Below are positions 19,544 to 50,089 of a DNA stretch of 64,000 bases, piece after piece (position 1 is the stretch's first letter; each line of letters starts with the position of its first letter). The position numbers were made by a program, and so were the translations under genes. The stretch is from an uncultured Chloroflexia bacterium. GTDB taxonomy: Bacteria; Chloroflexota; Anaerolineae; Anaerolineales; UBA4823. Below the pieces are notes generated by a model. That model saw only the letters and a program-made list of their open reading frames with translations, did not search any database and was not told where the DNA came from. The DNA lies in assembly GCA_963828845.1 (NCBI GenBank), contig CAWHGE010000017.1, positions 8,981-72,980 on the forward strand, written 5' to 3'.

Positions 19544-20196
19544 CTATTTGATTAAACCTGCTTGTTGGGCATATAGGATCGCTGCTCGTGCGGTTCTTCA
19601 GCCTTAACTTGGCCAGAATATTATGTATATGATGTTTAACTGTGTTCACGGATAGAAAATAGTTTGGTCGCGATTTCCCCATTCGACGCACCCAGGGCTA
19701 TCTCCCGTAAAATTTCAATCTCACGCTGACTGAGAACACTCTGTGTATTGCAAACCTCACTGGAGACTCCATTATATGGTGCTGTGAGAATTCCTCCAGG
19801 AGACGCATGGTCATTGATCCCGAGATGGCTGCTTCACCTTTTTCGATTGATTTTAACGAGCTCACCAATTTCGCTCACCGGCACATTCTTTAACAGATAT
19901 CCCTTGGCACCACTCCGGATGGCTGCAATCAACTTATCATCCGCGTCATACATGGTCAGGAAGACAATCTTACATCCGGGTTGCTCTGCTAAGATAGCTG
20001 CAGAAGCTTCAGCACCATCACCATCCGGCAAGCTGAAATCCATCAGGATTAATTCGGGTCGGAGTTTACTGGCTAAATATATTGCTTCATGAACCGATCC
20101 GGCCTGACCGACAACATTAAAATATTTATCTGCTTTGAGTAAACTGACCAAACCTTCACGAAATAACACATGATCATCAACGACGAGTACTTTCAC
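19544..20196 (-). CDS. NarL/LuxR-family response regulator; frameshifted
   Basis: VLVVDDH, ILMD, GYLLK receiver; LSVNTVKHHIHNILAKL HTH. Confidence 0.9.
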
Positions 20197-20220
20197 ACTT
20201 CACCTCTCTTATAAAACTCT

Positions 20221-21620
20221 TCACTCATCAGACGCAATTAATGGCAAGCAGGAGCATGACTTCTGTACCCTGCCCTGGGGTGCTGTTGATTTCTGCATTT
20301 TCCTCCAAGAGATTGAATCCGTTCATCAATAATGTGAAGTCCATAATGACCATCATAGCGCAGTTTCATCTGAGCTAAAACCCCGTCCATCATCCCAAAT
20401 ATTCACCTTAAGGTGTGTATCCGTCCAGGATAAGTGTACCTTTGCGTGGCTGGCACCAGAATGTTTTTCGATATTGTACAGAGACTCTTTAAACGCGTAA
20501 AGGAGCTGTTTTAAATGGTTTGGTGGTATGGAACGTGGCAGACCTTCTTCATCGATATTTACGGAAATCCCGGCACGTTTGGCAATAATTTGCGTGTGTG
20601 CTTTGAATAGTTCATTGATCTGATGGTCACTTCCATGATGCAGGATGACCAGGGTATTCCTCACCAGTTCGTATGATTCATTGGCAAGCTCGCGCAGATG
20701 TTCGAGCTCATTTTTCAATGTGCGCAATGAATACTTCTCACCTGCAGTTAGTATCTGATCAAGTTTGAGATGCAAATATCCCAGATTCTGACCTAGTGTA
20801 TCATGCAGGTCACGGGCGATTTCCAAGCGTTCGTTACTGGCTGCTTGGCAACTTCTATGGCGTGCTGTTCTTGTCTTTGGTTAGCTGCACTCAAACCAAT
20901 GGCAATATCATCTGCGGTATTACTTAACAGTTGAGCATGTTCATTTGTTAAATACTTGTGTTTCGGCAGGATCATATAAAGCATCCCTATTGGCAGATCC
21001 CCATAATTAATAGAGATGTGATAACACTGCCGCTTTCCATCTCTATCTTCGCTAATTTTGTCGCAATCAACCAGGTGGACATTGGGAGCGATAGTGACTG
21101 ATATCATCTGTACAACAGGCATCTCTGGATATGGTTTTGACTTGGATTTCAATATTCTCAGATGGAGCTATCCAGCTCTGCTTCTGTGACGAAATTATCA
21201 TTATCCTGGTCAAAGATCAGTAGCGATGTTGCTGACACCGGTAATATGGAGGATGGATATTGGAGTACCCTGGTTACAACATCCTCCCAATTTTTCGCAG
21301 AAATCAATTGCATGCTGAGGTTATGCCGGGCATCCAATATCATGATGGTCTGATTCTTGGCAATCACTGCTTTGATGGCCAGCTTCAACCATTACTGCTG
21401 TGACGGCGATTAATGTATAGTACATCGCAATTTCTTTAAAAAAATATAAACTATTGTCGGTAAGAAAGTCAGGATGCTCAATAATTTCGAATATACCCAA
21501 GAAGATTGTGGTCAAATAGCAAAATAACGATCCGCCAACGAATGAGAAAATTCTGTATCTTCCCAACAAGAGGGCGAAATTCATTAATCCTGGAGCGTGA
21601 CGAAAGTACCATTTCCTCAC
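20221..21620 (-). CDS. NarX-like HisKA_3 sensor histidine kinase with TM and GAF-like region; frameshifted
   Basis: EIARDLHDTLGQ, ESLYNIEKHS, DDGRGF. Confidence 0.85.
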
Positions 21621-21942
21621 CTAATTTGTCCGTATTGCGAAGATTTTACAACAGATATGCAATTATTCTATTCGAATCACATTAGTATTCATTAATAACA
21701 GATTTTTTAGGAAAGAGCATATTCCACATTATTCACACTAACAAATGATTATGGATTTTTACCCTTTACGAATAGAGGAATAATTTAGTACCGCTGGTGG
21801 ATGTAATTTGCGAACTCTGGCAATCATGATCTGATAACACGAGGCAATAACTAATCACTATCGTAACTGCATGAGTTCTCCTTCCGGGCAGAACTGCAGG
21901 CTATTTTTTTCTTTGATCTTTTACATCACCTTCCTAGCAAAT

Positions 21943-22825
21943 TTATCCCACAATGGCGAGGTTGTGGTGCCGTAGACTGTTTATCACCGGACCTGGTGCC
22001 TCTCCAAGCTGAAAGTGGTAAAGGCGCATCGTCCTGAACAGCGAGTTCAATCGGGCGCAGCCAGGGAAAGCGGGCCAGGCGTGGCTCTGGCCGGTCGAAG
22101 AATCCCCACTCGTCGAGCAAACGAATGCCATCGCCCCAGCCTTCGAGCTTCTGACCGCGCCAGATTCCCCAATGGACACGGAGAACAACCTTTGTGGTGG
22201 ACATTTGGAGGTTGTGCACCCAGACATGGAGTGGCGAATAGGCATCGAAGACCAGCTCCGCGCCTGGAAAACGGTCACGCAACGTCAGCACCAATGACTT
22301 GACCTGCGCTTCTTTGAAGTACATGAAAACACCTTCGGCCAAGAACAGGAAGGGTCGCTGGCGATGTGCGCTCACAGTGTCCAGCCAGGCATCCTCGAGT
22401 ATTGAACAGCCCAACAGGCGATGACGCCCCACTTCGTCGCTGATATACTTACGGCGCAGCTCGATGACCTCTGGTAAATCCAGGTCGTACCACACCACCT
22501 GCTCATTACGCTCGGCGACGCGCTCGAAGCGTGAATCGAGACCGCACCCGATGTGAACTACAACCGCCTCCGGGTGGCGCCTCAGGAACTCCCGTGCATA
22601 GCGGTCGAATTCCCGGTTGCGCAGGATTATCACTAACTTATTCGCCTCACTCAGTGGGATCTTTCTGATCTGGGCGAAGTCGTAGCTCATCTGTGCGACC
22701 AGCGCCACAGCCTTATCGTCTTTAATCAAGGCGTCTGGGCGCTGCGATTCCTCCGCCCGCAGGTAAAGTGTGACGAGCAGCGATTCAGACACACTACTCA
22801 GTCCTTGATCAGTATTCTCAAACAT
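21943..22825 (-). CDS. Class I SAM-dependent methyltransferase (LCM/TcmP-like); frameshift near 3' end
   Basis: VVHIGCGLDSR, WYDLDLPEVI, FLAEGVFMY. Confidence 0.9.
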
Positions 22826-22835
22826 ACCGCCCTCC

Positions 22836-23657
22836 TTAGAGTTGATAGTGAAAAACGCCTATCCCCGTGGAGAGGAATGGAACCAGGCGCACCTTCAGAG
22901 CACGGCGAAGACGATGCTCAGGGTACTGGAAGGGGAACCGCTCATCGAGCAGATGGATGCCATCACTCCATCCCTCGAGGTTCTGGGGATGTTTCAGAGC
23001 CCAGTGCAAGGGGGCGCCGATTCTGGTGCGGGCGACCTTGATATTGTGCGACCAGCGGAGGAACGGTGAATAGGCATCGAAGACCAGCTCCGCGCCAGGG
23101 AAACAATCATGCAGCATCAGCACCAGCGACTTGACCTGCGCACCTTCGAAGTACATGAAAACACCTTCGGCCAAAAACAGGAAGGGGCGCTGGTGATGTA
23201 CGCTTACTGCCTGCAGCCAGGCATCCTCGAATACCGAGCATGCCAGCAGATGATAGTGCTCCTTCTCATCACCAATGAACTTACGGCGTAGCTCAATGAC
23301 TTCCGGCAAATCCAGGTCGTACCACTCCACATGACCATTGCGCTCCGCGACGCGCTCAAAGCGTGTGTCAAGGCCGCACCCGATGTGGAGCACGACCACC
23401 TCCGGGTGGCGCTCCAGAAAATCCTGGGCGAAGCGGTCGAAATCCTGGGTTTTCAGGATCACAACGAGCCGGGTGGAATCTTCGGTCAGGGCTGTCGTCT
23501 TGTGCAAGGCCTCCTGATCCAATTGGCGGACCAGCGCTTCGGCTCGCTCGTCTTTGATCAGGGCATCTGGGCGTTGTGATTCGATGGCTCGGATGTAGAG
23601 CGTGATGAGCGACGTTTCAGGTACACCGCTCAGAGTTGGGGATTTTATTTCAGGCAT
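22836..23657 (-). CDS. Class I SAM-dependent methyltransferase (LCM/TcmP-like), tandem paralog
   Basis: VLHIGCGLDTR, WYDLDLPEVI, FLAEGVFMY. Confidence 0.9.
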   Translation of the reverse strand: MPEIKSPTLSGVPETSLITLYIRAIESQRPDALIKDERAEALVRQLDQEALHKTTALTEDSTRLVVILKTQDFDRFAQDFLERHPEVVVLHIGCGLDTRFERVAERNGHVEWYDLDLPEVIELRRKFIGDEKEHYHLLACSVFEDAWLQAVSVHHQRPFLFLAEGVFMYFEGAQVKSLVLMLHDCFPGAELVFDAYSPFLRWSHNIKVARTRIGAPLHWALKHPQNLEGWSDGIHLLDERFPFQYPEHRLRRALKVRLVPFLSTGIGVFHYQL

Positions 23658-24226: not shown

Positions 24227-24967
24227 TTATAACTGGATAACCCCACGCCATATGAGGATGACGACCAAACCAATTTGAATGGCATCGTACAGGTAATGGG
24301 CAACAATCAGGTGAAAGATACGCCCAAACCGCAAGTACCATAGTACCATGATCAAACCGTTGAGGGTCACAGAGATAACACCCGCCGTACCTTGGGCCAC
24401 ATGGTTGAGGCCAAACAGCACCGCTGAAAGGATCACTCCGAGAACCAGCCAGAGCTTTGTGGAAGATATCTTCATCCAACGCGTGATGAAAAATACGCGG
24501 GTCAGCTCTTCGGAACCTGCCACACCGATGAACAATACCGGACCAAGGAACAAGGCGCATAACCAGGGGTTTCCCGCTAGTGTATTAACTAGACCGCCTA
24601 TACCACTCTCACTATCTGAAGCACGGTGGAAATATCTGGCGATCGTAGGGTCAAGTACGTACTTAAGGGATAAGGTCAGCCCAACCAACACTATACCGCC
24701 GAGGAGATCCTTCCACCATGCGCCGGGTCTCAGATTAAGGACTTCAGGTTTTTCCCCGCACAGGAACCACAACAAAAGCAGGAGCACAGCGATGACAATC
24801 AGGGTATACACGATGGAGTAGAACAGGTAACCTCTAGCTGTGACGGCTTCTCCACCCAGCTGAGTTATGAAAACCATCAAAGGCGGTATATATCCAAGCA
24901 AGATGGCGAGCACACTTACCCAGGTTTTTCGCTGCCAGGGTTTGCGGGTATCTTGTGATGTAGACAT
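24227..24967 (-). CDS. CPBP family intramembrane protease
   Basis: SEELTR, FGLNH, AHYLYD. Confidence 0.85.
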   Translation of the reverse strand: MSTSQDTRKPWQRKTWVSVLAILLGYIPPLMVFITQLGGEAVTARGYLFYSIVYTLIVIAVLLLLLWFLCGEKPEVLNLRPGAWWKDLLGGIVLVGLTLSLKYVLDPTIARYFHRASDSESGIGGLVNTLAGNPWLCALFLGPVLFIGVAGSEELTRVFFITRWMKISSTKLWLVLGVILSAVLFGLNHVAQGTAGVISVTLNGLIMVLWYLRFGRIFHLIVAHYLYDAIQIGLVVILIWRGVIQL

Positions 24968-24976
24968 CGCTTCCTC

Positions 24977-26050
24977 CTATTTTTCATGGGACAATTTACT
25001 TGATGCCAGGACTGAATCTTCTATTGGCTCAATTCTGGCAGGCGATTGATAAACTGAAGGATGGTCGGAAGGTAGTTTCTTCCACATCCGGTCATAAACG
25101 ATCGCAAATATGGTCAAGACGATAAATAGAACCTTGCTGATAGTGGTCTGGGTGAATGAGTTTCCGAAGGCGTTCATAGCAGGATGAAATAGGGCAGGCG
25201 CCAGTAAGCTCCCGTTGGTACGGTTATATAACCAGGCTAAGATAACCCCGAAAAGCACTCGCCAAAACAGGCGATACTCAAGAAACCAGGCCAGTGATGG
25301 GGCTCTGTTGATTGGGGCAAGGTCGTAAGGCAAATGCCATAACGCCCACAAGACTCCCACAATTATCGACGCCGCAATGACGGAGTAACGCGCTTGCAGG
25401 CGAGGCAGAGCAAAACCGCGCCAGCCGCTTTCCTCGTTGATGCCCCCAGTCATAAGGAATCCTCGCAGGAATTCGAGCAGGAGGGCGATGGCTGCGCCCT
25501 CCAATCCGAGGTTATCCAGGTAGAATTGGGCTTCCCCTCCCAAGCTGCGTGGGATAACTAGTGACAGGAGCGGGATACCCGGGAAGATCAGAAAAATAAC
25601 CAGGTACCACAGGATAGATCCTCTCGGTTTGAGCAGGGTTGAGAACTGCTTGCGAATCCCGGGTGTTCGGGCATACGCGCTGGAAAGCACCCAGGCAGGG
25701 AAAAGCGCAAAGATGCAGTTGATTATGATGGTTCCTGCCCCGAAATCCATATTCTGAACCTTCCAACTGTATAGGGTTAAGACTACTGAAGCAAAGAGCC
25801 AGGACAAGAAAATTGCTAATAAATGAGGGCGTCTGCGTTCGAACTTTGGTTGGGGTTCTGCGATACCAGAGATCAGCATCGAGGTAAGCGCTGGACTGAA
25901 GAGCGTGAACGGTGCTGACAGACCCAAAACAACCTGGTTACCAGGGAATATAAAGTAGATAAGGAGAAACCCTGGCCATGAAATTGCATAGGCTAATAGG
26001 AAGAATGCCAGCACTTGATGTAGCTTGATCCAATCGGTTATCTTATTCAT
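24977..26050 (-). CDS. CPBP family intramembrane protease
   Basis: NEESGWRGFALPRL, WALWHLP, FHPAMN. Confidence 0.9.
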   Translation of the reverse strand: MNKITDWIKLHQVLAFFLLAYAISWPGFLLIYFIFPGNQVVLGLSAPFTLFSPALTSMLISGIAEPQPKFERRRPHLLAIFLSWLFASVVLTLYSWKVQNMDFGAGTIIINCIFALFPAWVLSSAYARTPGIRKQFSTLLKPRGSILWYLVIFLIFPGIPLLSLVIPRSLGGEAQFYLDNLGLEGAAIALLLEFLRGFLMTGGINEESGWRGFALPRLQARYSVIAASIIVGVLWALWHLPYDLAPINRAPSLAWFLEYRLFWRVLFGVILAWLYNRTNGSLLAPALFHPAMNAFGNSFTQTTISKVLFIVLTIFAIVYDRMWKKLPSDHPSVYQSPARIEPIEDSVLASSKLSHEK

Positions 26051-26091: not shown

Positions 26092-27261
26092 CTAATCTGC
26101 TGAGCTGGGGGTAGCGACTAACGGTACTTGAGTCACGGGTGACTGAGCCGGGCTCTCCAACGCTCTCAGGTCGCGATAAGCCAGCGTCCAGATGGACGAC
26201 ATATAAACCTCTACCAGACCATTGACAAAAAGCATAGGTGAAGCCATCACTACGATGAAAATTGGTACCCCCACCAGTGCACCCATGATCCAGGGTGTAG
26301 CACCACCCATAAACAGGCTGGTGACCGTGGCAACCAGGGTGGCTGGTAAACCACCCATAGCTAAACCAGCCAGAGTCGTCAGCAGGAAGAAAGGAACAAG
26401 CAGGATTACGATCAGAATTCCCAGGGGTACCCACAGCAACCTGATGCACATCCAGACTAACCAGAGCATACCGACATCTTTTAGGTGACGCTTTGTCAGC
26501 GTGATTCCATGACGGAATGCGGCTACCATGCCCTGATTATCCAAGGCGCAGGCGCGTTTAATAGGCTGTATCACCAGTGAGAGTATTCCGCTGGCGGCGA
26601 GCCACAAATAGCCTGCCATGATGAACAGGCCGAAAGCGCCAATCCCGGAAGCGATGATGATTGCCTCGTTGCTTCTGATCGCCAGAAGGACTGGGGCAAC
26701 TACCACCCCAAACACTACGATAAATACCAGGATGGTCACCGCGGAGACGACGAAATCAATGAGGAATAGTCGCCAAGCGCGCAACGAAAATCCTCTTCGC
26801 AAACCCTGCCACAGGCCTAAATGTTTGCCATTCTCCTCTGCCTCACCTACCATGCGGATCATCGCAGTCTCCACCACGTAGCGTGAGATCACACCCAGCA
26901 GGAGCAGGCAAGCCAGGATCACGGCGACCTCGATCGTGATCGCCCAGAGGTTGATCGAAGCCTGGCGATTTACTTGATCGACCAGCTCACGAAACTCATT
27001 CCACGAAGTTCCATCCTCAGTGATTATGCGGATTCCTTCAGGTGCGGTGAGGTCGATGGTCATATCAGCCCCAGGTAACTGAAGCGTGGTGGTATTGCTG
27101 AGCTTGATCCTGATCCACTGGTCATTGTCCTCCCAATCGAACCATGGACCTAGATAAACTGTGGAGGCGCCAACCAATGAAAGGATTGCACCGAACAGCC
27201 ACAATGCTCGATAATGCCAGAGCATTTGCCAGGCTTTGCGTAGAATTGTGTTGAGGTTCAT
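26092..27261 (-). CDS. Polytopic membrane protein of unknown function
   Basis: 389-aa intact ORF, many TM helices, RBS aggag. Confidence 0.8.
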   Translation of the reverse strand: MNLNTILRKAWQMLWHYRALWLFGAILSLVGASTVYLGPWFDWEDNDQWIRIKLSNTTTLQLPGADMTIDLTAPEGIRIITEDGTSWNEFRELVDQVNRQASINLWAITIEVAVILACLLLLGVISRYVVETAMIRMVGEAEENGKHLGLWQGLRRGFSLRAWRLFLIDFVVSAVTILVFIVVFGVVVAPVLLAIRSNEAIIIASGIGAFGLFIMAGYLWLAASGILSLVIQPIKRACALDNQGMVAAFRHGITLTKRHLKDVGMLWLVWMCIRLLWVPLGILIVILLVPFFLLTTLAGLAMGGLPATLVATVTSLFMGGATPWIMGALVGVPIFIVVMASPMLFVNGLVEVYMSSIWTLAYRDLRALESPAQSPVTQVPLVATPSSAD

Positions 27262-27442
27262 GTTGTTCTCCTAACTCCTTGTGCTGACCCCGTTTGCCAC
27301 AAACACCCTGAAGCAGGGTCGTGGACGATAACTGCATCGATAATCCTAGCATAACGGATATTGGAGGGAAACACACGAGCCTGGAGATGGGTTTACTGAT
27401 TACGATTGATGCGATTGTGAATGCATCTACAGAATGAAATCG

Positions 27443-27610
27443 CCCCCTCTACAGTACCCCCATTTATCCTCTCCGGATATATCCGGATATAAAAAAAAGT
27501 GGCGGAGATGCCAGCCACGAAAGTAAGGCTGGCAGCCTTGTGTTGATCCTACTCGATTTGTAATAACTTGTTCGCGACGGACGATCCCAGACTACCAGGC
27601 TAAGGCTGCC
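27443..27610 (-). repeat. Degenerate copy of 28465-28630 (regulator 3' end, hairpin, promoter-like region)
   Basis: Colinear blocks: cccctc.acagta; atcctct.cggatat; tgccagc..aaagta..gctggca; ttcgcg.cggacgatccc...ccaggc..aggctgcc. Confidence 0.8.
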
Positions 27611-27849
27611 AAGTGTCTCAATAACCTCCGCATTACACTTCTCCGATGAAGAGCAGCCTCCCCTACAGCAGTGGAAACTTTCTGTAATTTGGTTTTTAAA
27701 ATTTCGTGAAAGTTTTTTCTAACACTTGGTTGACTATCAGGTGGCCTTCTCCCCCAATACCTTACTCAGCAGACCTACGGATATTTGAAACGCCCCTCCC
27801 ACGGATTATGTGTACGCAGGAGGGGAATATTGTGACCTTGGAAGAAAAT

Positions 27850-28203
27850 TTACGGTGTCGGTTGGCATGGATGTCGTTCGATCCAGTCGGAACCGGCATA
27901 GTAGTTCGTGGGGACGGCGGTCGGTGGATGGCGTTCGATCCAGTCGGAACCGACATAATAGTTCGCAGGGTGGACGACCGCTGGGTGGCGTTCGATCCAA
28001 TCGGAACCGACATAGTAGTTAGCGGGAAGGGCGGCCTGTGGGTTGGATTGGATAGAATCGGAGCCTGCCAGTTTTTCGTTGGTGATGGAATCTCCTGAAT
28101 TTGAGGTTGGAGCGGAAGTACTAGATAGCACCTGTACTGACAGTAATACTACCACCAACAAACCAGCTGATATTACAATCCTCAATATACTTTTGGTAGA
28201 CAT
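27850..28203 (-). CDS. Secreted 117-aa protein with tandem NYYxGSDWIERHP repeats
   Basis: RBS aggagg, signal peptide MSTKSILRIVISAGLLVVVLLSVQVLS, 3 full and 1 degenerate 19-aa repeats. Confidence 0.8.
   Translation of the reverse strand: MSTKSILRIVISAGLLVVVLLSVQVLSSTSAPTSNSGDSITNEKLAGSDSIQSNPQAALPANYYVGSDWIERHPAVVHPANYYVGSDWIERHPPTAVPTNYYAGSDWIERHPCQPTP
27868..28071 (-). repeat. 57-bp period coding tandem repeat
   Basis: Units start at 27868, 27925, 27982, 28039; core differences mostly at synonymous positions of the minus-strand frame. Confidence 0.9.
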
Positions 28204-28522
28204 GTTAACCTCCTTTCTTATTTGATTCGAAAATCTACTCTGACAAGCATTGTTCCAGGCATTTTTTACGATTTGCATGACATCCATATATAAATCTCCT
28301 TTCCTTGCCTCCTTTGGTGTTCTATCCAGCCATTTATCAACGCAGAGCTGGAGGATGTTTCTGCTAATAGGATATCGGAAAGTGATCTGCAACACACGAG
28401 TCTACATGGGGGTTCTTCGTTTACTGAGGATGTATTTTCGATCCTGTTTAGGGAGTTATTGGTTCCCCTCCACAGTAATCTGCAACCATCCTCTGCGGAT
28501 ATGTCCCCGGATTAAATAGCAA

Positions 28523-28560
28523 CGGGGTTGCCAGCTCCAAAAGTATCGCTGGCAACCCCG
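28523..28560 (-). terminator. Stem-loop after response regulator
   Basis: cggggttgccagc/gctggcaaccccg. Confidence 0.7.
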
Positions 28561-28587
28561 CCATCACACCAATTGATTTACATCCGT

Positions 28588-29251
28588 TTATTCGCGGCGG
28601 ACGATCCCTTCCTGCCAGGCATAGGCTGCCGCCTGGGTGCGGTCGACCAGGTGCAATTTGCTGAGAATGTTGCTGACATGCCCCTTGACAGTACCCACAC
28701 TGATGACCAGTTGTTCGGCGATCTTGTCATTTGAATAACCTTTGGCGATCAGCTTGAGCACTTCCATCTCGCGTTCAGTCAGCGCAATGAAGGGAGTTGC
28801 CTCTTCAGGCTCCAGGCTGCGGAATGTTTTGATGACGCGTGCGGCGATCCTTGGATGAAGGGTGGCTTCCCCCCGGGCAGCACGACGGATGGCTTCGACA
28901 AGCTCTGAGGCTTTCACATCTTTGAGCAGGTACGAGATCGCACCGGCTTGAAGGGCAGGAAAGATAAATTCGTCTTGATGGAAAGAAGTCAGGATGACGA
29001 TCTGGGTGCGCGGGCTGATGTCTCTTGACCCTGCGTGTGGCTTCAACGCCATCCATGCCAGGCATCACCAGGTCCATCAAAACCACATCAGGGATGAATT
29101 CCTGAGCCAACTTGACGGCCTCTTCACCTGACCCTGCTTGAGCAACCACAGAGATATCAGGTTGGGCTTCCAGGTAACTGCAAGCACCACGACGAACCAT
29201 TTCATGGTCATCAACGATCATTACGGTGATAGCATCCGTTGGATCAGCCAT
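28588..29251 (-). CDS. NarL/LiaR-like response regulator; one frameshift
   Basis: IVDDHEMVR, VLMDLVMPGMDG, LTEREMEVL, TVKGHVSNILSKL. Confidence 0.92.
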
Positions 29252-29263: not shown

Positions 29264-30754
29264 TCAAACCATGCGCGGTAAAGTTACTATGATTTTGGTG
29301 CCCTGCTCTGGCGAGCTTTCAACTGTAAAACTCCCGCCTAATACTTCGGCGCGTTCTTGCATCGAGTAAAGGCCTAACCCACCATGTTGAACACTCTTGT
29401 CAAAGCCGTGGCCATCATCTTTGATGATCATTGTAACCATCTTTGTCTCATATTCCAGGGATACATCTGCACGACTGGCAGAACTATGACGGGCAATGTT
29501 TGCCAGGGCTTCCTGGGCGATCCGGAACAGGGCTTCCCGGGTCTCTAACGACAATTCGTCGTTTCCCTCAATATTAATATTCAACTCAATCCCACTTCGA
29601 TGAGACCAATCCACGGCGTACTCTTTGAGGGTTTCGGAAAAATCCTGTCCGTCCATGGACTGGGGGCGCAGCTCGTGGACCAAATTGGTGAGCTCATTGC
29701 GAACCGAATCAACCAGTGCATCGGCTTCCACCAGATGTTTTTTTGCGATTTGTGGATCGCGGTCGTATAACGTGAGGGCAGTGCCCAATTGAAAGGAAGC
29801 CGCCAGAGCCTGTTGCTTGGCACTGTCGTGCAGGTCACGCGCCAGCCGGTTACGCTCTTCAGAGACTGCCATTTCTTGTCGTCTGCGAAGCAGATCCTGT
29901 AATTGTTTGGCCATATTGTTCAAACGCTGTGAAAATTGCGAAATCTCATCTCCGGTGGTGTCATCAATAAACTTTGAGAAATCACCTTCACTCCAGGCAT
30001 CGATGGTGGTAGATAATCGCTTGAAGCGTGTGGACAGCCCATGGGCAAAAAAGGCACCGAAGATGGCTCCCATGATCCCAGTACCAAGCAGAAAGATCAA
30101 CAGGCTTCTGCCGGCAATATTCAGGATGTGCGAAGGAATATCCGCCTGGGTGGGAAGATTATCGATAAATACCACAACAACCCCCACAACCCGGTTTTCG
30201 CTCACGGGACGTAGTCGAAAATCGGAAGTGCCAATACATATCGTTTATTCGGTTCAAATATGGTGTACAAATGGCTCGTATCTGTGTCACCCGCCAGTGC
30301 GGCATTAAAGGGTGCCTCCAAACCCTGTACCTGAGCGAGGTCGAATGGTTGCCCGATTACAAAACTGGTGGGGAAACTATATTCGGTCTTTCCTAATAAT
30401 GTTCCATCCGTTCCAATAATTAAAGCGCGCACTGAGCCATTGTCCTCACAGTGAACTGTACAGAACCAATGCGAAGAAAATCGAAACTTGTGATCGTCGA
30501 TATCAGATTCTTTCAAGAGCAAAGCAATTAATTGCTGTATCCACCGGAGATTGAGAAAGTACATGACTAAACAAGGGACCAGTGTTTTTCTGTAATATCT
30601 CAATCAGTACTTCGGGACTGAAAATATTGGTTTGCACAAATATCCGGGGTAAAACAATCCCTACCAGGATCAGGATAACTACCAAAAAAGCACTCACCGT
30701 CACGATGGTGTAGTTGAAGGTCAATTTCCAGCGAAGTTTACGAAAGATGTTCAT
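29264..30754 (-). CDS. HAMP/HisKA_3 sensor kinase (LiaS-like); frameshifted
   Basis: Two TM, HAMP, EERNRLARDLHDS, EALANIARHS, DDGHGF, GLGL. Confidence 0.9.
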
Positions 30755-31016
30755 ATTTTTGCCTGCTCGCGTTATCTACTTTGATTTTAGAATGCATCTC
30801 AACGATAGTATACGCACTTTCAGACTTGCCTTACACAGAATCCATATTCTCCGACAGACTATCCTACTATGATCTTAGCATAACATAAATCTGATGCCAA
30901 GAAACCTGTCTTGGGTATGGTTTATGCTCTAACTTTGGATAGGTATTCGAATCGGGCGCGTCTCTAGCGTTTGTCTTGCAGAAGAACCCACAAAAGAAGC
31001 TTTTAACAAGTAGATA

Positions 31017-31040
31017 AAAACCTGCCGTCCGGCAGGTTTT
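31017..31040. terminator. Intrinsic terminator
   Basis: aaaacctgccg/cggcaggtttt downstream of dehydrogenase. Confidence 0.75.
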
Positions 31041-31075
31041 GGTTTATTTTACAAGATTTAGTTAAAAATGGAATC

Positions 31076-32095
31076 TCATAAGTCAAGCATGACTTTCATA
31101 TACTTCCCTCCGGATGATTCTATAGCCTTATAAGCTTCCAAATACTCCTTAAATGCAAATCGGTGAGTCACAATTTGATCCAGCTGAAGTTTCCCAGTTG
31201 AAACAAGCTCAATTGCGCTCTCATAATCTTTCCGTTGATACATAAGAGTGCCGATCAAACTCAGCTCACGATCCTGGATCAGACCCAGATCGACTGATGG
31301 CTTCTGACTAAAAACACCCACAACGATGATCGTGCTACCCTTGCGGGCGTGTTCAATGGCCTGAGTGATGGTATCTTGCACACCCACACATTCCACGATC
31401 AGGTCAGCTTTATCCGCACCGAAGGCTTTCAGGATTGCCTGGCCAAGGTCCTCGTGGATGGGATTCACCGCGTCCATCAAACCACATTGGCGAGCCTTAT
31501 CCAGCTTATATCCGCTGACATCTGTGATCATCACCCTCTTAGCGCCATTGGCAGCAGCGACCTGCGCAACCAGATTACCAATCGTGCCTGCGCCAAGGAC
31601 CAGCACGTTCAAACCCGTCATACTGCCAAACCGGGAAAGTGCGTGAACCGCCACCGATATTGGCTCGATCAGCGCAGCGTGATCCAGCGGCATCGATGCT
31701 GGCAGCTTTAAAACCCGGTCTGCCCTCACTGGGAAGTATTCCTGAGCTGCCCCATTGGTCTGAAAGCCCATGACTTTCAGGTTTTCACATATATGGTACA
31801 TCCCATGGCGGCAAGGATAACACTCCCCACAGGTCACCTGGGGCATGAAAACCACTGTATCACCCCTGGCAAATCCTTTCACCTGTGTGCCCACCTCAGC
31901 AATCACACCCGCGACTTCATGGCCTTGCACAACCGGGTAGCTGGTAAAGGGGTGCAGCCCATGGTACACATGGATATCTGAGCCACAGATACCAATCCGC
32001 TTCACCTGTATCAGAACTTCATCCGGCTGAGTTTGCGGTAAAGGGATTTCACGAAATTCAATCTTCCCGGGACTGACCACGATTGCCTGTTGCAT
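31076..32095 (-). CDS. Zn-dependent medium-chain (sorbitol/threonine-type) dehydrogenase
   Basis: GICGSDIH, GHE, CGECYPCRHGMYHIC, GAGTIG. Confidence 0.92.
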   Translation of the reverse strand: MQQAIVVSPGKIEFREIPLPQTQPDEVLIQVKRIGICGSDIHVYHGLHPFTSYPVVQGHEVAGVIAEVGTQVKGFARGDTVVFMPQVTCGECYPCRHGMYHICENLKVMGFQTNGAAQEYFPVRADRVLKLPASMPLDHAALIEPISVAVHALSRFGSMTGLNVLVLGAGTIGNLVAQVAAANGAKRVMITDVSGYKLDKARQCGLMDAVNPIHEDLGQAILKAFGADKADLIVECVGVQDTITQAIEHARKGSTIIVVGVFSQKPSVDLGLIQDRELSLIGTLMYQRKDYESAIELVSTGKLQLDQIVTHRFAFKEYLEAYKAIESSGGKYMKVMLDL

Positions 32096-32344
32096 ATGTT
32101 CTCCTGTACTTTACTTATGCGTTGCGAATTACCCTCATCGCCTTTATCTCAGCTTGTGGATCACCTATGTTTTGCAGCCCACTTTGCATAGCTTAGTAGG
32201 CTTCTTGCATATCGGGATTCACAATTAATCGCCTGTCTCCCGTTTATGTACTAACTGAGTATATTTATTTAACCCCTGCCTGCACCCAACCTCCTCCCAT
32301 GAGCCGAAATTAGACTGCCTGGGTAGATAGACCTCTTACTCAGG

Positions 32345-33097
32345 TTATTTACTTCCCAGGGATTTATAGGTGCCCAATCCGGTCGTATTAACATCGGTCT
32401 GAGGATTGCCATAATACGAGATAGTCCCAGCACCACTGATGGTGCCAGCCAACTTATCAGTCACCCAAACAGTGGCGCTACCCAGACCGGGTACGGTTAC
32501 GTTGGCAGTCTTGATTTTTAAGTCGGGGGCGTTAATGGTCCCTGCACCGGGGATACTGATGGTTGCCTCACCTACATCACCGGCAATATCAACACTCCCT
32601 AATCCGCTTACATTGACGTTGAGCATATCGGCAGTGAGCTGGTTGAGCTGAACCTTCCCTGCCCCACTCATGGTCAATGTCAGATTGGGGGTCGACAGCG
32701 TCTCCATACTGACGTCACCCAGACCACTTACCGTCAGTGAGGAGAGATCCTTAACCCCAATGGTGAAGGTCAGCATATTTGTTTTGTTAAAAGAGGTGAC
32801 GTTGATATTCTCATCTGTTTCTATATTTAGGGTACCGTTGCTGACGGTTGTTTTGATGAGTGGGACCAAGTTATCGCTGCCCGAGATGGTCAGTGATTCA
32901 CTGTTACCCTGACTTAGGATTACCTTGCCGAAGCTGCCCATGTTGATCGCGGTAAAACCACTCACGCCGCGTGTTTCGCTGATAATGACATCAGAAGGTG
33001 TGATTATTCTGCCATTTATGTTACTTATAATGCCACACGCAGAGGTTACCAGCATTACAGCCAGGAGGAACGTGAAGATTTTTATTGAAGTTTTCAT
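32345..33097 (-). CDS. DUF2807/GIN-domain lipoprotein
   Basis: Lipobox-like VTSAC; repeated SGxGxV beta-solenoid motifs. Confidence 0.85.
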   Translation of the reverse strand: MKTSIKIFTFLLAVMLVTSACGIISNINGRIITPSDVIISETRGVSGFTAINMGSFGKVILSQGNSESLTISGSDNLVPLIKTTVSNGTLNIETDENINVTSFNKTNMLTFTIGVKDLSSLTVSGLGDVSMETLSTPNLTLTMSGAGKVQLNQLTADMLNVNVSGLGSVDIAGDVGEATISIPGAGTINAPDLKIKTANVTVPGLGSATVWVTDKLAGTISGAGTISYYGNPQTDVNTTGLGTYKSLGSK

Positions 33098-33274
33098 TGA
33101 GAATCTCCTTTCAATGATAAGAGTTAAAATAGGTGGTTTGATTATTAAATCATAATAGTGGATAATTAGGAATACCCCTTTCGTACGGGGGTGAATATCC
33201 TATCCAGATGGGTAAGTATATTCCGGGAATGGTAAAGTTTACTCACCTTGGATAACAACAGTCGGGAACTTGTA

Positions 33275-36200
33275 TCAAGCGTTATTCGGAGGCAATTCGT
33301 TGAGCGAAGGTCGACTATCTTCTGGATCTCCCATAATCACCTCAACATTGTGTTCCTGTCCATCGTCAATCAAGGGGATAGACATAAGGCCCAATATTTT
33401 CCCATCCAATTTCACATACTGAACATTATGAGCAAGGTGTCTGGGGTTGTAAACCTTTATTTGATAGCAAGTTGCCCCGAATAGATATTTAATTTCATAC
33501 CCGTCCCAGGTTGGTGGAATTACCGGATCAATGCTCAGGGTGTCACCGGTTTTCTTGAAACCAAGGAGCGCCGTCAGACCGAGACGGTACATCCATGCAG
33601 CCGAACCGGTATACCAGGTCCATCCACCACGATGCAAGTAAGGTGGTTGACTGTAGATATCAGCACATATCACATAAGGCTCGACGCGATATTCAGCTGC
33701 CTTCTCCTCTGAATCGGAATGGAAGATAGGATTTAGAAGATCGAAGAGTTCACCCAGCTTGCTTTCCATCACCTAGTTGGGCGAAAGCCCAGGCAGTCCA
33801 GATGGCGGCGTGTGTGTACTGCCCGCCGTTTTCGCGTATGCCCGGAAGATAACCTTTAATATAGCCTGGATCATGCTCAGTTTTGTCAAAAGGTGGTGTG
33901 AAGAGCAGAGACAATCGGTCCTGCGGGAGAACCAACCGTTCCAACACTGATTGCATCGCCTGACGGCTGTGACTGGGATCGCCAGCTCCACTTAATACAG
34001 CCCACGACTGGGCAATTCCATCAATCTGGCATTCAGGATCCTGGATCGAGCCGAGTGGGAAACCATCATCATAATAGGCACGACGATACCACGCTCCGTC
34101 CCAGGCTGTTTGCTCAACTGCGGCAGCATATTCCTTAGACCGGCTCCGGTAATATTCGGCTGTTTCGCTATCTCCCCGATGTTCACAGATTCGAGCGAAG
34201 CGCTCAAGGACATCGCATAGAAACCAGGCCAGCCAGACACTTTCCCCTTTTCCTTCTTCCCCTACTCGGTTCAGGGCATCATTCCAATCACCAGTACCAA
34301 TCAAAGGTAGGCCATGCGAGCCGCTGGTGGCGCCTTTTTTGATCGCCCGGTGGCAATGTTCTATCAGAGGATATGATTCTTTGGTCTGTGGATATTGGTT
34401 ATAGCGTTCGTTTTCATCCTTATTCAATGGTGGTGCTTCCAGGAAGGGTATTTTTTCTTCGAGAATACTCACGTCGCCAGTGGTTTCGACGTACAAGGCA
34501 GTCGCATACGGAAGCCACAGCAGGTCATCCGAGATACGCGTTCGCACACCGCGACCGGAAGGTGGGTGCCACCAATGCATTACGTCGCCTTCAGTGAATT
34601 GAAGTTGGGCAGCGTTGAGTATCTGGCCGCGGGAAATAGCCGGATCGATCGGAAGCAAGGCTAGAACATCCTGAAGCTGGTCCGCGGAAGCCAAATGCTC
34701 CACTGGGCTGATAAAAAGCCGACCGCCCCCAGATCCGGCAGGAGAGGCTCTGGTAGAGCATCCAACGGTTGAGGATCAAATCGGTAGCTGGTTCAGGAGT
34801 ATGCACCTGGACTGTACTTGAGTAGGTGGTCCCAGAACACCCTTGTTCGCTCCAGAGCAGCGCCCACGTAAGCCGGAGTCATGGTATTTTTTGGCCAGCT
34901 CAAGGGCATGTTCCTTATTGCTCCCTTGCCCCAGCACAAAGTAAATCTCTTCAACCGCACCAGGGAGTAGATCGAGGTGTAACTGGAGTACCGCACAAAT
35001 ATCCTCACTGGGTGAAAGACGAGTTTCCAGCCCGATACGATGCAAAGCAGCCGGAAAGGCGAGTGTTCCACCCCGCCCCAAGAACTCCATCCGGTCGGTT
35101 GTCAATCCGTGGACTGGTTTACTGGCGATGAGGAAGGCGGTTCTCTCGCCAAATTCAGCGTTGTAGGGGTTGGTAGCCAGCAGGCAGTATTCAGCCGCGT
35201 CATACTCTGGAATGATATATGGTAGTGATGCGGCATGAGTAGTACCCAACACCCATTCGATGTACTGGGTAGCTGTAATCCGACGATTGTGATTCCAGGT
35301 GTTTTCAACCCGCAAGTGGATAATTTTAACCGGGTCTTCTGGACTGGCAAATAGCGTCAGACGCTGGCGAAGACCGTGTGAATTATGCTCGAAGATGGTG
35401 TAGCCCGCGCCATGTCTAACCCGATAGGGCTGGTCTGCACCAGCAGGAAGAGGCGTGGGAGTCCAAACATCGCCGGTTTCTTCATCTCGCAGGTAGAGCA
35501 CTTCACCCGTTGGGTCGCGTACCGGGTCGTTTGACCAGGGTGTGAGGCGGTTTTCTCCGCTGTTCACCGCCCAGGTGCACTGGCTGCCGGTTTCGCTAAC
35601 CATAAAACCAAAATAAGGATAACCGATAACGTTGACCCACGGGGCAGGAGTACGCCTGCCGGGGCTCAGCTCAATGATATATTCCCGGCCATCTGCATTA
35701 AAACCGCCATAACCGTTATAAAACTGCAAGGGTCCTGTTGAGGGGAGGGGATCCTCCTGACTGGGAACGCCAATGCCTTCGGTGGACCTGGTTGGTATAA
35801 ATTCGGGCAGATGAGCAGCCTGGATTGTGTACTCCGGAATTTGATCATCCAGGGATCCGTGATCTCCCCTAAAAAGGATGTATCCCGCGGTCTGTAGCAA
35901 AGCGTGTTCCTCAGGATTGATCTGATCCGCATAAAGGATGAAGATCCCGCCGCGCTTAGTCAACCACTGCTCGCTGTTTAGACGGTTTACCAAGCGATAG
36001 AGCATACCATTCAACTCGGCGCCGTAATCGGTTACTTGATGATTGAGAATGACGATATCCACCATAAAACGGCGGCTACGTAAAAATTCATGTACCTGTA
36101 AAACCTCACGGATCAGGTCGATCTGCTTGGGATCTTCAATCTCGACCAGCAATATCGGATAATCGCCTGAAATACCAAAGCGCCACAAACCAGCCTGACC

Positions 36201-39200
36201 AAGCCGATTTCCTGCAATTATTTCAGTTGAAGCACGCACGGCCTTGAACGGATATATCAGTGCGGAGAGCACCTGCAAGGTATTTTTGAATGACCGAGAA
36301 TCGTAGTTTTGCTTCCCCAGCCAGGTCTGGACGGATATGTTAGCTTGATGATAGGAACGCTCAATGAGAGACCAGCTGGAATACCGCTTGGCTAATGCCA
36401 GGACTGCTTCCCGACTGTCTCCAGCGAAGGTTAGATATGCCAGCTCAGCACTTTCGTGAGGGCTAAGTTTGATCTCCTGTCCAAGTGCAAAGATCGGATC
36501 AAGTGTAGCGCCAGTTGTTCCTGTGAGGTACTCCTTAGCATCAAGTGCAGCTGGGTTGCGGAGAGTACGGCCTCGGCCGATAAATCGATTGCGGTCAGCT
36601 TCATGACGTATCACCGGTTGGTCATCATGAAATTCGCCTTTACGATCGACAACCAGCATGTGTCCCATGAAGATGGGCTTTTCATCGCTGGAACGGGGTC
36701 GTCGTGAGAAAATTTGCATATTTAGCTCAGGTACAAATTCACTCTTGATAAAAAGCTTGTTGTAAGCTGGATGGCGCCTGTCTGCAGCCTGTTGTGCAAG
36801 GATCACTTCCCCATAGGAAGTCAGACGCAGGTGGTGCAGCTGGCTATTCGTATTGTGCAAATGAATGCGACGGATCTCAACCGGGTCGTCAGGACATACA
36901 GTGACTTCCATGGTTGAGGTAACATCATTCTCCGTGCGGTGAAAGACCGCCATATGGGCGAAGAAAGTCACCTGCATATTTTCCGCATTGGTAGGGATGG
37001 GTTGGAACCCTGTCGACCAAAGTCCTCCAGGGGTCACTTCCTCTTCGTCTCTGAGATTCATATCTTGAATGTAGATCCAGGTTCCCCATGGATCAAGTAC
37101 GCCATCCGCCTGCCACCGTGTCAGGTCTATATCGCGCCAGGTACTATACCCACTTCCCATATTGGAGAGTAAGACCCCATAATTACCATTGGAGAGGAGA
37201 TTAACCTGTGGGATAGCGGTCTCAACCGGCACACTCCAGGGATCTATTTCGACTGGGGCTACTGAAAACCGCATTACTCCTTTAACATCCTCTGCATAAG
37301 GATTTTGTAGAGGAACTGCCTGCGGTATCTGCTCTTGTAAAAGCAGCTCGACACTCTGGATACGGGGGTCGTTGTGCATCCGGCGTACCATTATGTTTTT
37401 ATCTAAATAATTTACCAATGCCATTAAGATCATGCCCTGGTGGTGAGACATGTACTCATGAACCACAGATGAGGTATCGCCCACCGGTAGTCGGTCAGCT
37501 GTGAAATCAATCGACTCATACAGACCGTACAATCCAAAGCTGTTGAGCTCGATTAGGCTCCCTAGATTTTGGGCTACAGCATGGGGGTTGTAACCGATCG
37601 CCATAAGCGAGGCGTAAGGTGTAACAACCAGATCGTCTCCCAATCCACGTTTAAAGCCCAGCCCTGGAACCCCAAATGCGCGATATTGGTAATTTTGATT
37701 GGCGTCAAACAGGTAAAAACCGGATTCGGAGATACCCCACGGGACATCTTTTGCCTTTCCATATGCGATTTGATGGAGGACTGCTCCCTGTGCGCTTTCT
37801 GCCAACAGCGTGCCTGGGTAGGAGCGTAGGAAAAGCGCCGGCATCAGGTATTCAAACATGGTCGCACTCCAGGAAAGCAGGACATATGTCCCTTCTACCC
37901 GGGTTAACGGCCGGCTAAGTTGCAGCCAGTGGGATTGAGGCACTTCTCCCTTTGCCAGGGCAATGATGGAGGCGATCCGTGCCTCAGAGGCCAGTAGATC
38001 GTAGTAGTTATTGTCGAGCTGACCGGTGTCAAGGTTAAAACCGTTGTGGAACACTCGCCGTTGCGGGTGATAAAGGAATTGGAAATCCATCTCTATCACA
38101 AATTGCTCAGCACGGATCGCACTTTGAGTGTAACTATTCAGCAGTTCATCAGCATTGGCTCCAGCCTGCGCTAAAGCCTGGTCCATTGCATCCAACCATT
38201 CCATCCGCTTCGCGTTCCGGACCAGATTCGGGAACGTGGATGAGTTGGATTTCCTTTAGAAGATTGCGTAATGCGGCTGTGCTGGTTAAGCCAGCAGTGG
38301 CGTAGGTGCGGATCTCGCCGAGGTGTGGATTGTAAGGTAAATTAGCTCTCAATGTGTTCAACCCTTGCACAAATTGAGACTCATTGAAAAGCACGGGAAC
38401 CTGCTCCAGCAAGTGAATCCAGGGCACCAGTTCAGCAAGCGTTCGTTGTATGGCTTGGTGATGACGTTCAACCTGGGATGCGACTTCTTGCAGCTTGCGC
38501 AGTGCTTCCAAATCGAAAGCTGCACTGCCTACCTCTATCAGCTCAATCAGGCGCTTCGAGAGATCTGGCCAAAATTGTTCATTTATAGTCTGAAAGAGTG
38601 CAAACCAAAGGTTTGGTTCCATCCGCACTGCCAGGATTTTATCGTTCATCTCGGCAATTTTGCGGTTGATTTCCTGAACCGGGTGGTCAAATTCAGCCTT
38701 GCGCATCCCTTTTAATATTTCGGTCAGATTGGAAAGCGTATCCAGGTAACCCTGCCATAGATCCCAACGAAAAATTCGTTCTGTCGGCATGCTCTTACAC
38801 GCCTGAGCAGTTACGATCAGGCTGGCAGCCAGGTTACCGCTGTCTACAGTAGAAATGTAGCGCGGCTTGAGCGGCTGCAGGGTCAGCGTATCATACCAAT
38901 TTAAGAAATGCCCGCGGAAACGTTCCAGCTGGTCTAGGGTATCTATCGTTATGGAGAGGCGGGTTGCCAATCCGAGTTGATCCAGGTATCCAAGGTCGTA
39001 AGCAGCCAGAGTGGAGGTGAGTAGCAGGCCGATGTTGGACGGTGAGGTGTGGTGTGCGACGATCCCAACGGGCGCCTCCTGGAAGTGATCGGGTGGCAGC
39101 CAGTGATCTTCCGGGCCAACGAATCTCTCAAAGAAGCCCCAGGTACGCCGGGCAACCTGTCGAAAGAGAATTGTTTGCTCTTTACTCAACGGATTCGTAC

Positions 39201-42189: not shown

Positions 42190-42191
42190 GC

Positions 42192-43220: not shown

Positions 43221-43693
43221 GATATTAACTCCTTTCTATCCAGAAAACCTAAAGAAGTGACAGTAGAGGTTTGATTAGTGTTCCAGGCAACCCATCGATG
43301 AGTATAGTCTGGAGTGCGCTCAGCATGGGTGACAGGCTATAGTAGGTTGAGGACAATCGCCCAAGCAAAACTTGTGATGGGGCTCTCTAAGCAAATCCAT
43401 AAATCGGTGATGGAGCTGGACGGTTCGGCTATGATTTTGGCAACACCGCTATAGCCCCGAAGGTTAACGTGCAAAAAGATCAAAGATAAGATCAAAAATA
43501 CCCCGCCCTGACCGGCTGACCACACCAGAGACGAAGCAATCAGAGAAGAGAGAAATATCAAACCGACCCGCCTCCATTGTATCAGCATTACCGCAAGTAG
43601 CGTTGCACGAGTGGAAAGGTGACTTAGTCGCCTGATTGGGAGACTGATTCGGCACTCGGATATTCTTGGATGGGTGAGCGAGGGACGGGTCGG

Positions 43694-43807
43694 CTACTTG
43701 TGGATGGGAATGCTCTTGCCTGCTTCTTGTTTCAGCCGTCGCAGGTGCGTGCGCACCCCTTTGGATAATCGCTTTTTCTTCTTCTTTTCGTTTTTATGGT
43801 CTGCCAT
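43694..43807 (-). CDS. Small basic protein (37 aa)
   Basis: RBS aggag; MADHKNEKKKKKRLSKGVRTHLRRLKQEAGKSIPIHK; below ORF-track cutoff. Confidence 0.5.
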   Translation of the reverse strand: MADHKNEKKKKKRLSKGVRTHLRRLKQEAGKSIPIHK

Positions 43808-43854
43808 TGGCCTAACTCCTGTTTTGATAAAGTCGGCTCATACCTAAGTGCGGC

Positions 43855-45333: not shown

Positions 45334-45538
45334 GCCAATATTCCTCTAGTCTGGAGCCAGGGCAATTATATGAAATTATATCTATATTATTGTAACAGGT
45401 TTTTTCTCGTTTCTTAGCTGGGCTGAATTTTTTATTCCATGAGGAAAGATAATTAAAATGCCAGAAATAAAAGCAAGTTAGAAATTAAAATTTTAGTCTG
45501 GTAAATGCAGATTTTCGCTGTGTTATACTCGCCTCGTC

Positions 45539-50063: not shown

Positions 50064-50089
50064 AAATGCGCTCGCATATAGATCAGTAA

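What the first reader, a model, noticed from the sequence alone, without database searches (positions are those of the whole stretch)
27850..28203. Secreted peptide with tandem NYYxGSDWIERHP cores
Seen: signal peptide, then 19-aa units with an invariant GSDWIERHP core and variable Pro/Ala spacers; the first unit is decayed (LAGSDSIQSNP). It lies directly downstream of a LiaRS-like two-component system. Inference: multi-core precursor of a signalling or antimicrobial peptide, or a small metal/ligand-binding repeat protein.
Basis: partly seen in the sequence, partly recalled or inferred. Interest (0 to 1): 0.7.

Follow-up and report, generated by a model that had tools for sequence, protein, structure and literature searches.

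The report
Regulator-linked exported repeat peptide, Anaerolineae
A sediment bacterium carries a small gene from an undescribed family: a likely exported protein built of repeated 19-residue units, probably switched on by the neighbouring two-component system and possibly cut into short signalling peptides, although that neighbour is probably not its dedicated receptor.

Summary
Window 27850-28203 (-) encodes 117 aa: a signal-peptide-like leader, one decayed and three intact 19-aa units with the core GSDWIERHP. It belongs to a real family (217 homologues; 226 clusters at 50% identity), mainly in one Anaerolineae genus, with no Pfam, NCBIfam or PDB assignment and no paper on the motif in the searched library. 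The core is held at protein level, units are mostly 14 or 19 aa, and single-core genes exist. The link to the two-component system looks like regulator-to-target. A promoter model trained on peptide-less copies of this kinase/regulator pair hits only two genome sites: before this gene and before the next membrane-protein gene. None of 20 further kinase loci carries the peptide, and the same core sits beside eight regulator classes (33 of 44 loci have a regulator just upstream, against 2% background). No modifying enzyme is conserved. Best reading (0.33): a multi-copy precursor of unmodified extracellular signal peptides. Rivals: intact heme/metal sponge, intact multivalent decoy, ligand of the adjacent kinase. 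Earlier scan notes report similar multi-copy exported peptides on other DNA.

The parts
27850..28203 (-). Gene for the 117-aa exported repeat protein (P0001)
   Evidence: 217 homologues
28108..28203 (-). Leader: basic n-region, 18-residue hydrophobic stretch, small-residue c-region (Sec signal peptide or uncleaved anchor; inferred)
   Evidence: sequence; AlphaFold helix 3-30; family hydropathy, 0 of 121 with a lipobox
28024..28080 (-). Decayed first 19-aa unit (residues 42-60)
   Evidence: intact in close homologues such as P0008
27967..28023 (-). Unit 1, residues 61-79, core GSDWIERHP, ends in Pro
27910..27966 (-). Unit 2, residues 80-98
27853..27909 (-). Unit 3, residues 99-117, ending at the stop codon
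   Evidence: a 6-residue tail after the last His in 69 of 121 near homologues
28204..28287 (-). In-frame 28-codon upstream extension with its own ATG and SD-like site; role unknown
   Evidence: open in 7 of 8 TCS-linked loci, stopped in L034
28366..28403 (-). Conserved promoter-like element (inferred target of the response regulator)
   Evidence: aligned across 8 loci; scores 18.8 with a model trained on 10 peptide-less loci
28521..28562 (-). Terminator-like hairpin after the response regulator
   Evidence: -31.3 kcal/mol, z -4.98; conserved
27793..27825 (-). Hairpin 25 nt after the peptide gene stop
   Evidence: -19.3 kcal/mol, z -2.5
28588..29251 (-). NarL/LuxR-type response regulator; the frameshift near 29023 is probably an assembly error
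   Evidence: short-read contigs of relatives lack the extra base
29264..30754 (-). HisKA_3 sensor kinase with extracytoplasmic PAS/Cache-like domain, in three frame pieces in this assembly
27345..27382 (-). Second copy of the promoter-like element, before the membrane-protein gene
   Evidence: score 29.7, best site in the genome
26092..27261 (-). Multi-TM membrane protein; a homologue has a weak DUF7544 match; recurrent neighbour of this kinase/regulator pair with or without the peptide
24227..26050 (-). Two Rce1-like (CAAX/CPBP) membrane protease genes; such genes also follow the pair in peptide-less loci

Best explanation
The gene encodes a short protein of repeated units that is likely exported, probably transcribed from a promoter controlled by the upstream two-component system, and would be cut by general proteases into unmodified 14- to 19-residue peptides that likely act as an extracellular signal on a receptor other than this kinase. 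Shown: ORF, repeats, family, protein-level conservation of the core, 14/19 spacing, the shared promoter element, adjacency to varied regulators. Inferred with good support: export (~0.9) and status as an output of the adjacent regulator (~0.8). Inferred weakly: release of single units (~0.5) and a signalling role. Each core is predicted to be a self-capped mini-helix (Ser cap, Asp-Arg i,i+4 pair, His-Pro end) that shows an aromatic face to a binding pocket.
For: Copy number runs from 1 to 8 across 121 homologues. Single-core genes of 55-58 aa exist (P0214, P0241), so one unit seems to be enough. AlphaFold gives no globule (pTM 0.26), only four 4-residue helices after the leader. The last unit ends at the stop codon as a full 14- or 19-mer in 77 of 121 proteins. 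In 168 of 206 N-[YF]-[YF] units a Pro lies two residues before the Asn, so a cut after Pro would give equal peptides in this subfamily. Core pN/pS is ~0.04 with pS 0.57 within genes (units picked by motif, so pN is biased low). The same leader also carries derived or new cores, often mixed with the old one in a single gene. This resembles the duplicated, diverged Phr propeptides of PMC5199041 (passages read). 33 of 44 metagenome loci have a regulator within 550 nt upstream, against 58 of 2797 ORFs in the own genome. Many of these regulators carry TPR or TM-WD40 sensor domains.
Against: No cleavage site is shared by the whole family: dibasic pairs occur in 3 of 380 linkers and the Pro rule is subfamily-specific. 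The 19-residue period and 6-residue tail persist in distant relatives (77 of 136 intervals; 24 of 36 tails) while 7-aa linkers share only ~20% identity between proteins, which fits a geometric constraint on an intact chain just as well. An identical core beside unrelated regulators is unlike the private codes of pheromone systems. No dedicated protease, exporter or receptor was found. A prolyl-oligopeptidase N-domain was not found in the 62% complete genome. No peptide has been observed.
Confidence: 0.33

Rival explanations
1. The intact, disordered chain is a heme or metal sponge, SilE-like in logic: each aromatic-x-x-x-His-Pro unit supplies a His ligand and the fixed 19-residue spacing places pairs of His on one heme or ion.
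For: The His column is 93% conserved in 501 near cores. Weak Pfam matches go to heme binders: Cyt-b5 in 27 of 55 near members at E<=0.1, best 2.4e-4, and haemophore MHB just above cut-off in one distant member, P0227, at 27.9 vs 27.4 bits. The b5 HPGG His is an axial heme ligand (PMC3423564, passages). Rv0203 binds heme through Tyr59/His63/His89, the same i,i+4 spacing as Trp/His here (PMC13764973, passages). SilE is an exported, disordered, repeat-motif sponge encoded with the SilS sensor system (PMC5008109, passages). The period is fixed.
Against: Equally good or better weak matches go to non-heme families (PPTA in 20, Luciferase in 28 of 55), so the signal may be a generic helix end. No b5 or haemophore chain appears in four PDB searches. 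There is one His per unit and Met is ~0.3%. Single-core genes exist, and the same leader carries His-free cores. No conserved iron or heme genes lie nearby.
Confidence: 0.2
2. The intact chain, free or tethered by an uncleaved leader, is a multivalent decoy or feedback modulator whose mini-helices bind a conserved protein target in the envelope, made as an output of envelope-stress regulators.
For: It shares a promoter element with a membrane-protein gene, and CAAX proteases and membrane proteins fill the same slot in other loci. One core is used under eight regulator classes. The period is fixed although linkers are not conserved. A Pro follows the likely signal-peptidase site in P0001, and in 12 of 112 homologues with such a site, which could leave it anchored.
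Against: No target is identified. Copy number varies freely from 1 to 8 and cores decay or are replaced. Most homologues have an ordinary small-x-Ala site (112 of 121, loose pattern).
Confidence: 0.18
3. The released core is the cognate autoinducer of the adjacent kinase, closing a positive feedback loop as in ComCDE or Agr.
For: The kinase has an extracytoplasmic PAS/Cache-like domain (Foldseek matches to WalK, DcuS and KinD sensors, all at E>0.001). The arrangement recurs in 11 of 44 metagenome loci and twice in this genome. The peptide gene carries the regulator-linked promoter element.
Against: 0 of 20 further kinase loci carry the gene. G003 (same genus, 95% complete) has the syntenic kinase and no family match. 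Peptide-linked and peptide-less kinases interleave in the sensor tree, though at unstarred nodes. L079 and L084 keep the sensor while the core has decayed to one altered copy. The same core sits beside unrelated regulators.
Confidence: 0.12
4. A RiPP or bacteriocin-like precursor, modified or cyclised by enzymes encoded elsewhere, with antimicrobial activity.
For: Leader plus repeated cores rich in Tyr, Trp and His; Pro-bounded units in this subfamily; CAAX proteases nearby.
Against: No radical-SAM, YcaO, lanthipeptide, P450 or exporter gene recurs among the 64 of 138 neighbours scanned; one ATP-grasp and one S9-family hit each occur once. The units are anionic (net -1). CAAX genes also follow peptide-less kinase loci.
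Confidence: 0.07

Closest known systems
Rap-Phr / NprR-NprX (RRNPP) propeptides with intragenic autoinducer duplications (PMC5199041, passages; PMC10075063, passages)
   Same: Small propeptide with signal-peptide-like leader; several identical or diverged copies of a short motif; gene next to a regulator; no modifying enzymes.
   Different: Chloroflexota rather than Bacillota. 117 aa with 14-19-aa units rather than 5-6-mers. The neighbour here is a membrane kinase plus response regulator, elsewhere STAND, ECF or LuxR proteins, not a 250-500-aa TPR receptor. One core is shared across regulators.
Fungal KEX2-processed repeat proteins (KEPs; PMC9769878, abstract and outline)
   Same: Precursor with many peptide cores; function largely unknown.
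   Different: Bacterial; no dibasic KEX2-type sites (3 of 380 linkers).
SilE / PcoE periplasmic metal sponges (PMC5008109, passages)
   Same: Exported, predicted disordered, repeated short helical His motifs, encoded beside a two-component system.
   Different: No sequence match; one His and almost no Met per unit; no metal-efflux genes nearby.
Cytochrome b5 HPGG segment and mycobacterial haemophore Rv0203 (Pfam Cyt-b5, MHB)
   Same: Helix ending in aromatic-x-x-x-His-Pro; weak profile matches.
   Different: Matches cover mostly one short helix end and are below cut-off except one; no folded b5 or haemophore domain; no PDB match.
LiaFSR envelope-stress system (features recalled, not from a call)
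   Same: HisKA_3 kinase, NarL-type regulator, downstream membrane-protein genes.
   Different: Far below the LiaS cut-off; ~177-aa extracytoplasmic domain; no LiaF- or LiaH-like neighbour seen among the scanned ORFs.

Membership tests
RRNPP quorum-sensing pair | Propeptide of 10-100 aa (PMC10075063) | tested here: not met
   117 aa here; some family members are 55-99 aa
RRNPP quorum-sensing pair | Sec signal peptide | tested here: inconclusive
   basic + hydrophobic + small-residue pattern, no lipobox; SignalP not available
RRNPP quorum-sensing pair | Directly adjacent 250-500-aa cytoplasmic TPR receptor | tested here: not met
   neighbours are a response regulator and a membrane protein; TPR-bearing neighbours elsewhere are ~870-900-aa LuxR/MalT-type STAND proteins
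RRNPP quorum-sensing pair | Mature peptide released, re-imported and bound by the receptor | not testable with these tools
   family-5 solute-binding proteins exist in the genome but also in 11 of 14 control genomes
Two-component peptide quorum sensing (ComCDE/Agr type) | Peptide gene always accompanies its kinase | tested here: not met
   0 of 20 further kinase loci; G003 lacks the family
Two-component peptide quorum sensing (ComCDE/Agr type) | Dedicated processing exporter or AgrB-type enzyme in the locus | tested here: not met
   none recurs; CAAX genes track the kinase, not the peptide
Two-component peptide quorum sensing (ComCDE/Agr type) | Peptide gene is under the cognate regulator | tested here: inconclusive
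   shared promoter element; regulator binding not tested
RiPP (graspetide, cyanobactin, radical-SAM types) | Co-clustered modifying enzyme | tested here: not met
   none conserved among 64 of 138 neighbours scanned
Fungal KEP | Dibasic sites flanking cores | tested here: not met
   3 of 380 linkers
SilE/PcoE | His/Met-rich MxxH and HxxM motifs | tested here: not met
   Met 0.3% of repeat regions; no family match
Cytochrome b5 / MHB haemophore | Whole folded domain above Pfam cut-off | tested here: not met
   P0001 has no Pfam match; 1 of 37 distant members scanned just passes MHB; no globular model
Cytochrome b5 / MHB haemophore | Heme binding through His | not testable with these tools
   needs spectroscopy
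LiaRS (adjacent system) | LiaS equivalog score and a sensor without large outer domain | tested here: not met
   115 vs 450 bits on the window's C-terminal piece; ~177-aa outer domain

The most novel reading that the evidence does not exclude
Anaerolineae run a peptide-signalling network: multi-copy exported mini-helix peptides (GSDWIERHP, SDYFQRHP and cores derived from them by internal duplication) are sensed by divergently encoded STAND ATPase regulators with outward-facing WD40 propellers or TPR arrays. This would be pheromone signalling through NLR-like receptors in Chloroflexota, with this locus a copy recruited by a two-component system.
Probability: 0.17. Interest if true: 0.82.

Novelty: new variant of a known kind. 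Interest (0 to 1): 0.52.

Why it matters
No description of this family turned up in the libraries and paper searches run here, and it is common in one genus of uncultured soil, sediment and wetland Anaerolineae. It gives a short, chemically makeable unit with three mutually exclusive and cheaply testable roles: signal, heme/metal sponge, or protein decoy. If it is a signal, it points to peptide communication in Chloroflexota and to a ligand class for their many STAND-WD40/TPR regulators. If it binds heme, it is a minimal natural repeat haemophore. The shared promoter element also defines a small regulon for a widespread orphan two-component system.

Tried and rejected
Complex prediction of the L032 kinase sensor domain with two repeat units of its own peptide: no answer, score 0.00 in both runs, controls not folded; it counts neither for nor against binding. 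DNA-level repeat (CRISPR, REP or RNA element): rejected, because variation is synonymous. Phage or viral origin: 9 pattern hits in viral contigs, none confirmed; PHROGs gave only short weak matches to unknown families. Fused longer forms: none among 7994 candidates, weak evidence. ESM Atlas: best scores 0.80 and 0.83 to unnamed clusters, leads only. The sigma-70 and terminator scan found nothing; the hairpins have loops longer than its limit. The variable linker as product, with the core as recognition site: disfavoured, since 105 of 380 intervals have no linker. CAAX proteases as dedicated maturases: they follow peptide-less kinase loci too. Amyloid-signalling motif beside STAND proteins (recalled concept): not pursued, as the units are Pro-rich, helical and behind an export leader. 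False hits dropped: L044 (actinomycete repeat protein) and G083/L091 (unrelated ORF). L215 and L216 were left out (19-residue matches). Expression: one 258-nt RNA contig, about 99% alike, covers 28018-28277 with a 2-base gap, and the same run covers 14 of 30 bins of 31001-50500; contigs cannot show strand or level and DNA carry-over is not excluded, so this is only a hint. The promoter element was not scored in the metagenome loci, so its presence there is open. Supplements of the papers were not opened.

Full report
Observation. The minus-strand ORF 27850-28203 encodes 117 aa: a basic and hydrophobic leader, a short Ser/Thr-rich stretch, one decayed unit and three intact 19-aa units with the core GSDWIERHP. 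TRF gives a 57-bp period with score 236, against 32-42 for the other three rows in 20-36 kb. The gene lies 385 bp behind a NarL-type response regulator and a HAMP-HisKA_3 kinase. Both are frameshifted in this assembly. Short-read contigs of close relatives lack the extra base in the regulator and show many such single-base differences nearby, so these breaks are probably assembly errors.

Family. P0001 has no Pfam or NCBIfam match and no PDB match. A full-text search for three spellings of the motif found 0 papers, and topic searches listed nothing on such a family (listings only). Yet 217 proteins match (best 120 listed), and a profile finds 226 clusters at 50% identity, including a distant group with the core SD[WY][FY][EQL]RHP. 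In GTDB genomes the family is narrow: 16 of 21 other genomes of the genus, 21 of 136 in the family with one false hit, 13 of 401 in an order sample, and 3 other genomes of 400 in a class sample with the distant profile. Record titles name uncultured Chloroflexia/Anaerolineae. Related DNA occurs in wetland and freshwater-sediment runs. The own genome holds a paralogue behind a second copy of the same two-component system.

Anatomy. In 121 near homologues there are 501 cores, 1-8 per protein. Of 380 intervals, 203 are 19 aa, 105 are 14 aa and 34 are 18 aa. The tail after the last His is 6 residues in 69 proteins and 1 in 8, which is exactly the end of a 19- or 14-mer. The distant group keeps the 19 period (77 of 136) and the 6-residue tail (24 of 36), while 7-aa linkers of the near group share about 20% identity between proteins. 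Core codons vary almost only at synonymous sites (39 units; pS 0.57 within genes, pN 0.02; units were picked by motif, so pN is biased low). AlphaFold predicts a leader helix and four short helices with no globule (pTM 0.26). Single-core genes of 55-58 aa exist, and the same leader also carries other repeated cores, alone or mixed with the old one.

Link to the two-component system. Intact kinase homologues have two TM helices around about 177 aa. The model of this domain (pLDDT 61) has only weak Foldseek matches, to PAS/Cache sensors (all E>0.001). This sensor occurs in 23 of 137 family genomes. Of 20 further kinase loci fetched, none carries the family (several contigs are short and some loci are near-duplicates). 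One has a different exported repeat protein in the slot; others lead to a membrane protein homologous to window 26092-27261, to CAAX proteases or to an S41 protease. What is conserved behind the regulator is a hairpin and a promoter-like element. A weight matrix trained on 10 peptide-less loci finds two sites above 14 in the own genome: before the peptide gene (18.8) and before the membrane-protein gene (29.7). The seven other TCS-linked family genes score 1.4-25.5, and 21 of 23 family genes in other contexts score below zero, the exceptions being 0.8 and 9.9. I read the peptide gene as one output of this regulator (inference).

Other contexts. Of 69 metagenome loci, 67 were classified and 44 have at least 500 bases upstream. 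Of these, 33 have a regulator-like match within 550 nt, against 58 of 2797 ORFs in the own genome with the same queries. The queries came from family loci, the ORF calls are crude, and some loci are near-duplicates. The regulators are this NarL pair, other LuxR proteins, divergent SARP-STAND, XRE-STAND-WD40, XRE-ATPase, MalT-type TPR, LuxR-AAA operons and ECF/anti-sigma pairs. Four STAND-WD40 neighbours have a hydrophobic helix between ATPase and propeller, so the propeller may face outwards. The exact SDWIERH core is present in 38 of 42 genes across eight such classes (most loci were retrieved by that pattern). No modifying enzyme, exporter or protease is conserved among the 64 of 138 neighbours scanned.

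Mechanism. The functional unit is a short linear motif, repeated, probably exported, and placed under many local regulators. Free copy number, single-core genes, the stop-codon register, Pro-bounded units (168 of 206) and chimeric cores favour release of unit peptides, like the duplicated Phr propeptides of PMC5199041 (passages). I put 0.33 on released signal peptides with a receptor other than this kinase and 0.12 on the kinase as cognate receptor. The fixed spacing without a shared cut site keeps intact-chain models alive. One is a heme/metal sponge (0.20), prompted by weak Cyt-b5 and haemophore matches and by the SilE precedent; non-heme families match as well, and PDB searches give nothing. 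The other is a multivalent decoy (0.18). A RiPP or antimicrobial reading gets 0.07.

Comparison and verdict. It works most like multi-copy Phr/NprX propeptides or fungal KEPs but fails their membership tests: size and TPR neighbour by the criteria of PMC10075063 (passages), and dibasic sites. It is not LiaRS-associated in the strict sense. Earlier notes of this scan describe similar exported multi-copy peptides in another Anaerolineae genome and beside TPR regulators in Acidobacteria and Bacteroidota; these are unchecked leads. Verdict: a real, apparently undescribed, lineage-restricted family; new variant of a known kind; function open but directly testable; interest 0.52.

Noticed in passing
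L130:4814-5164 (G024): A different exported repeat protein (core YVGMGDxxxYE, two copies) fills the same slot behind the same kinase/regulator pair and has the same promoter element (score 24.5); a MalT-like gene follows.
   Followed up: partly
L090:5135-5578, L086:5228-5801, L075, L076, L081, L083, L087, L088: The family leader carries other repeated cores (ARWQALGxYY, AKIAPVFD, PDYxDERYPRAI, SFTGAES), pointing to a wider set of leader-plus-repeat genes in this genus.
   Followed up: partly
window 28204-28287: In-frame upstream start with its own SD-like site, open in 7 of 8 TCS-linked loci; could give a longer isoform or a translational control element.
   Followed up: partly
window 28420-28500 and 27400-27490 (- strand): By eye, two conserved boxes about two helical turns apart lie upstream of the promoter element in both window genes and in peptide-less loci: candidate response-regulator sites.
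   Followed up: no
L039:11481-16241, also L083 and in part L074, L078, L081: A light-stress-like cluster (heliorhodopsin, MerR/B12 regulator, photolyase, an unassigned membrane protein, alpha/beta hydrolase) lies convergent to a family gene at a syntenic locus in the genus.
   Followed up: partly
L074:6091-7374, L077:3620-4741, L191:1489-2841: Multiheme cytochrome c genes lie directly upstream of family genes in three loci.
   Followed up: no
window 34776-38204 and 33275-34703: A large gene resembling a glycoside phosphorylase or cyclic-glucan synthase (judged by eye, not searched) is split by single-base insertions that short-read relatives lack; the assembly has many indel errors.
   Followed up: no
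window 19834-21620, 21926-23657: A second, frameshifted HisKA_3/NarL-type pair and two LCM-family methyltransferase-like genes lie downstream (only the first LCM gene was scanned).
   Followed up: no
P0228, P0230, P0233: Unrelated exported proteins with about 17-residue WLxxHP helical repeats score weakly on the profile; possibly another His-Pro helix repeat family.
   Followed up: no
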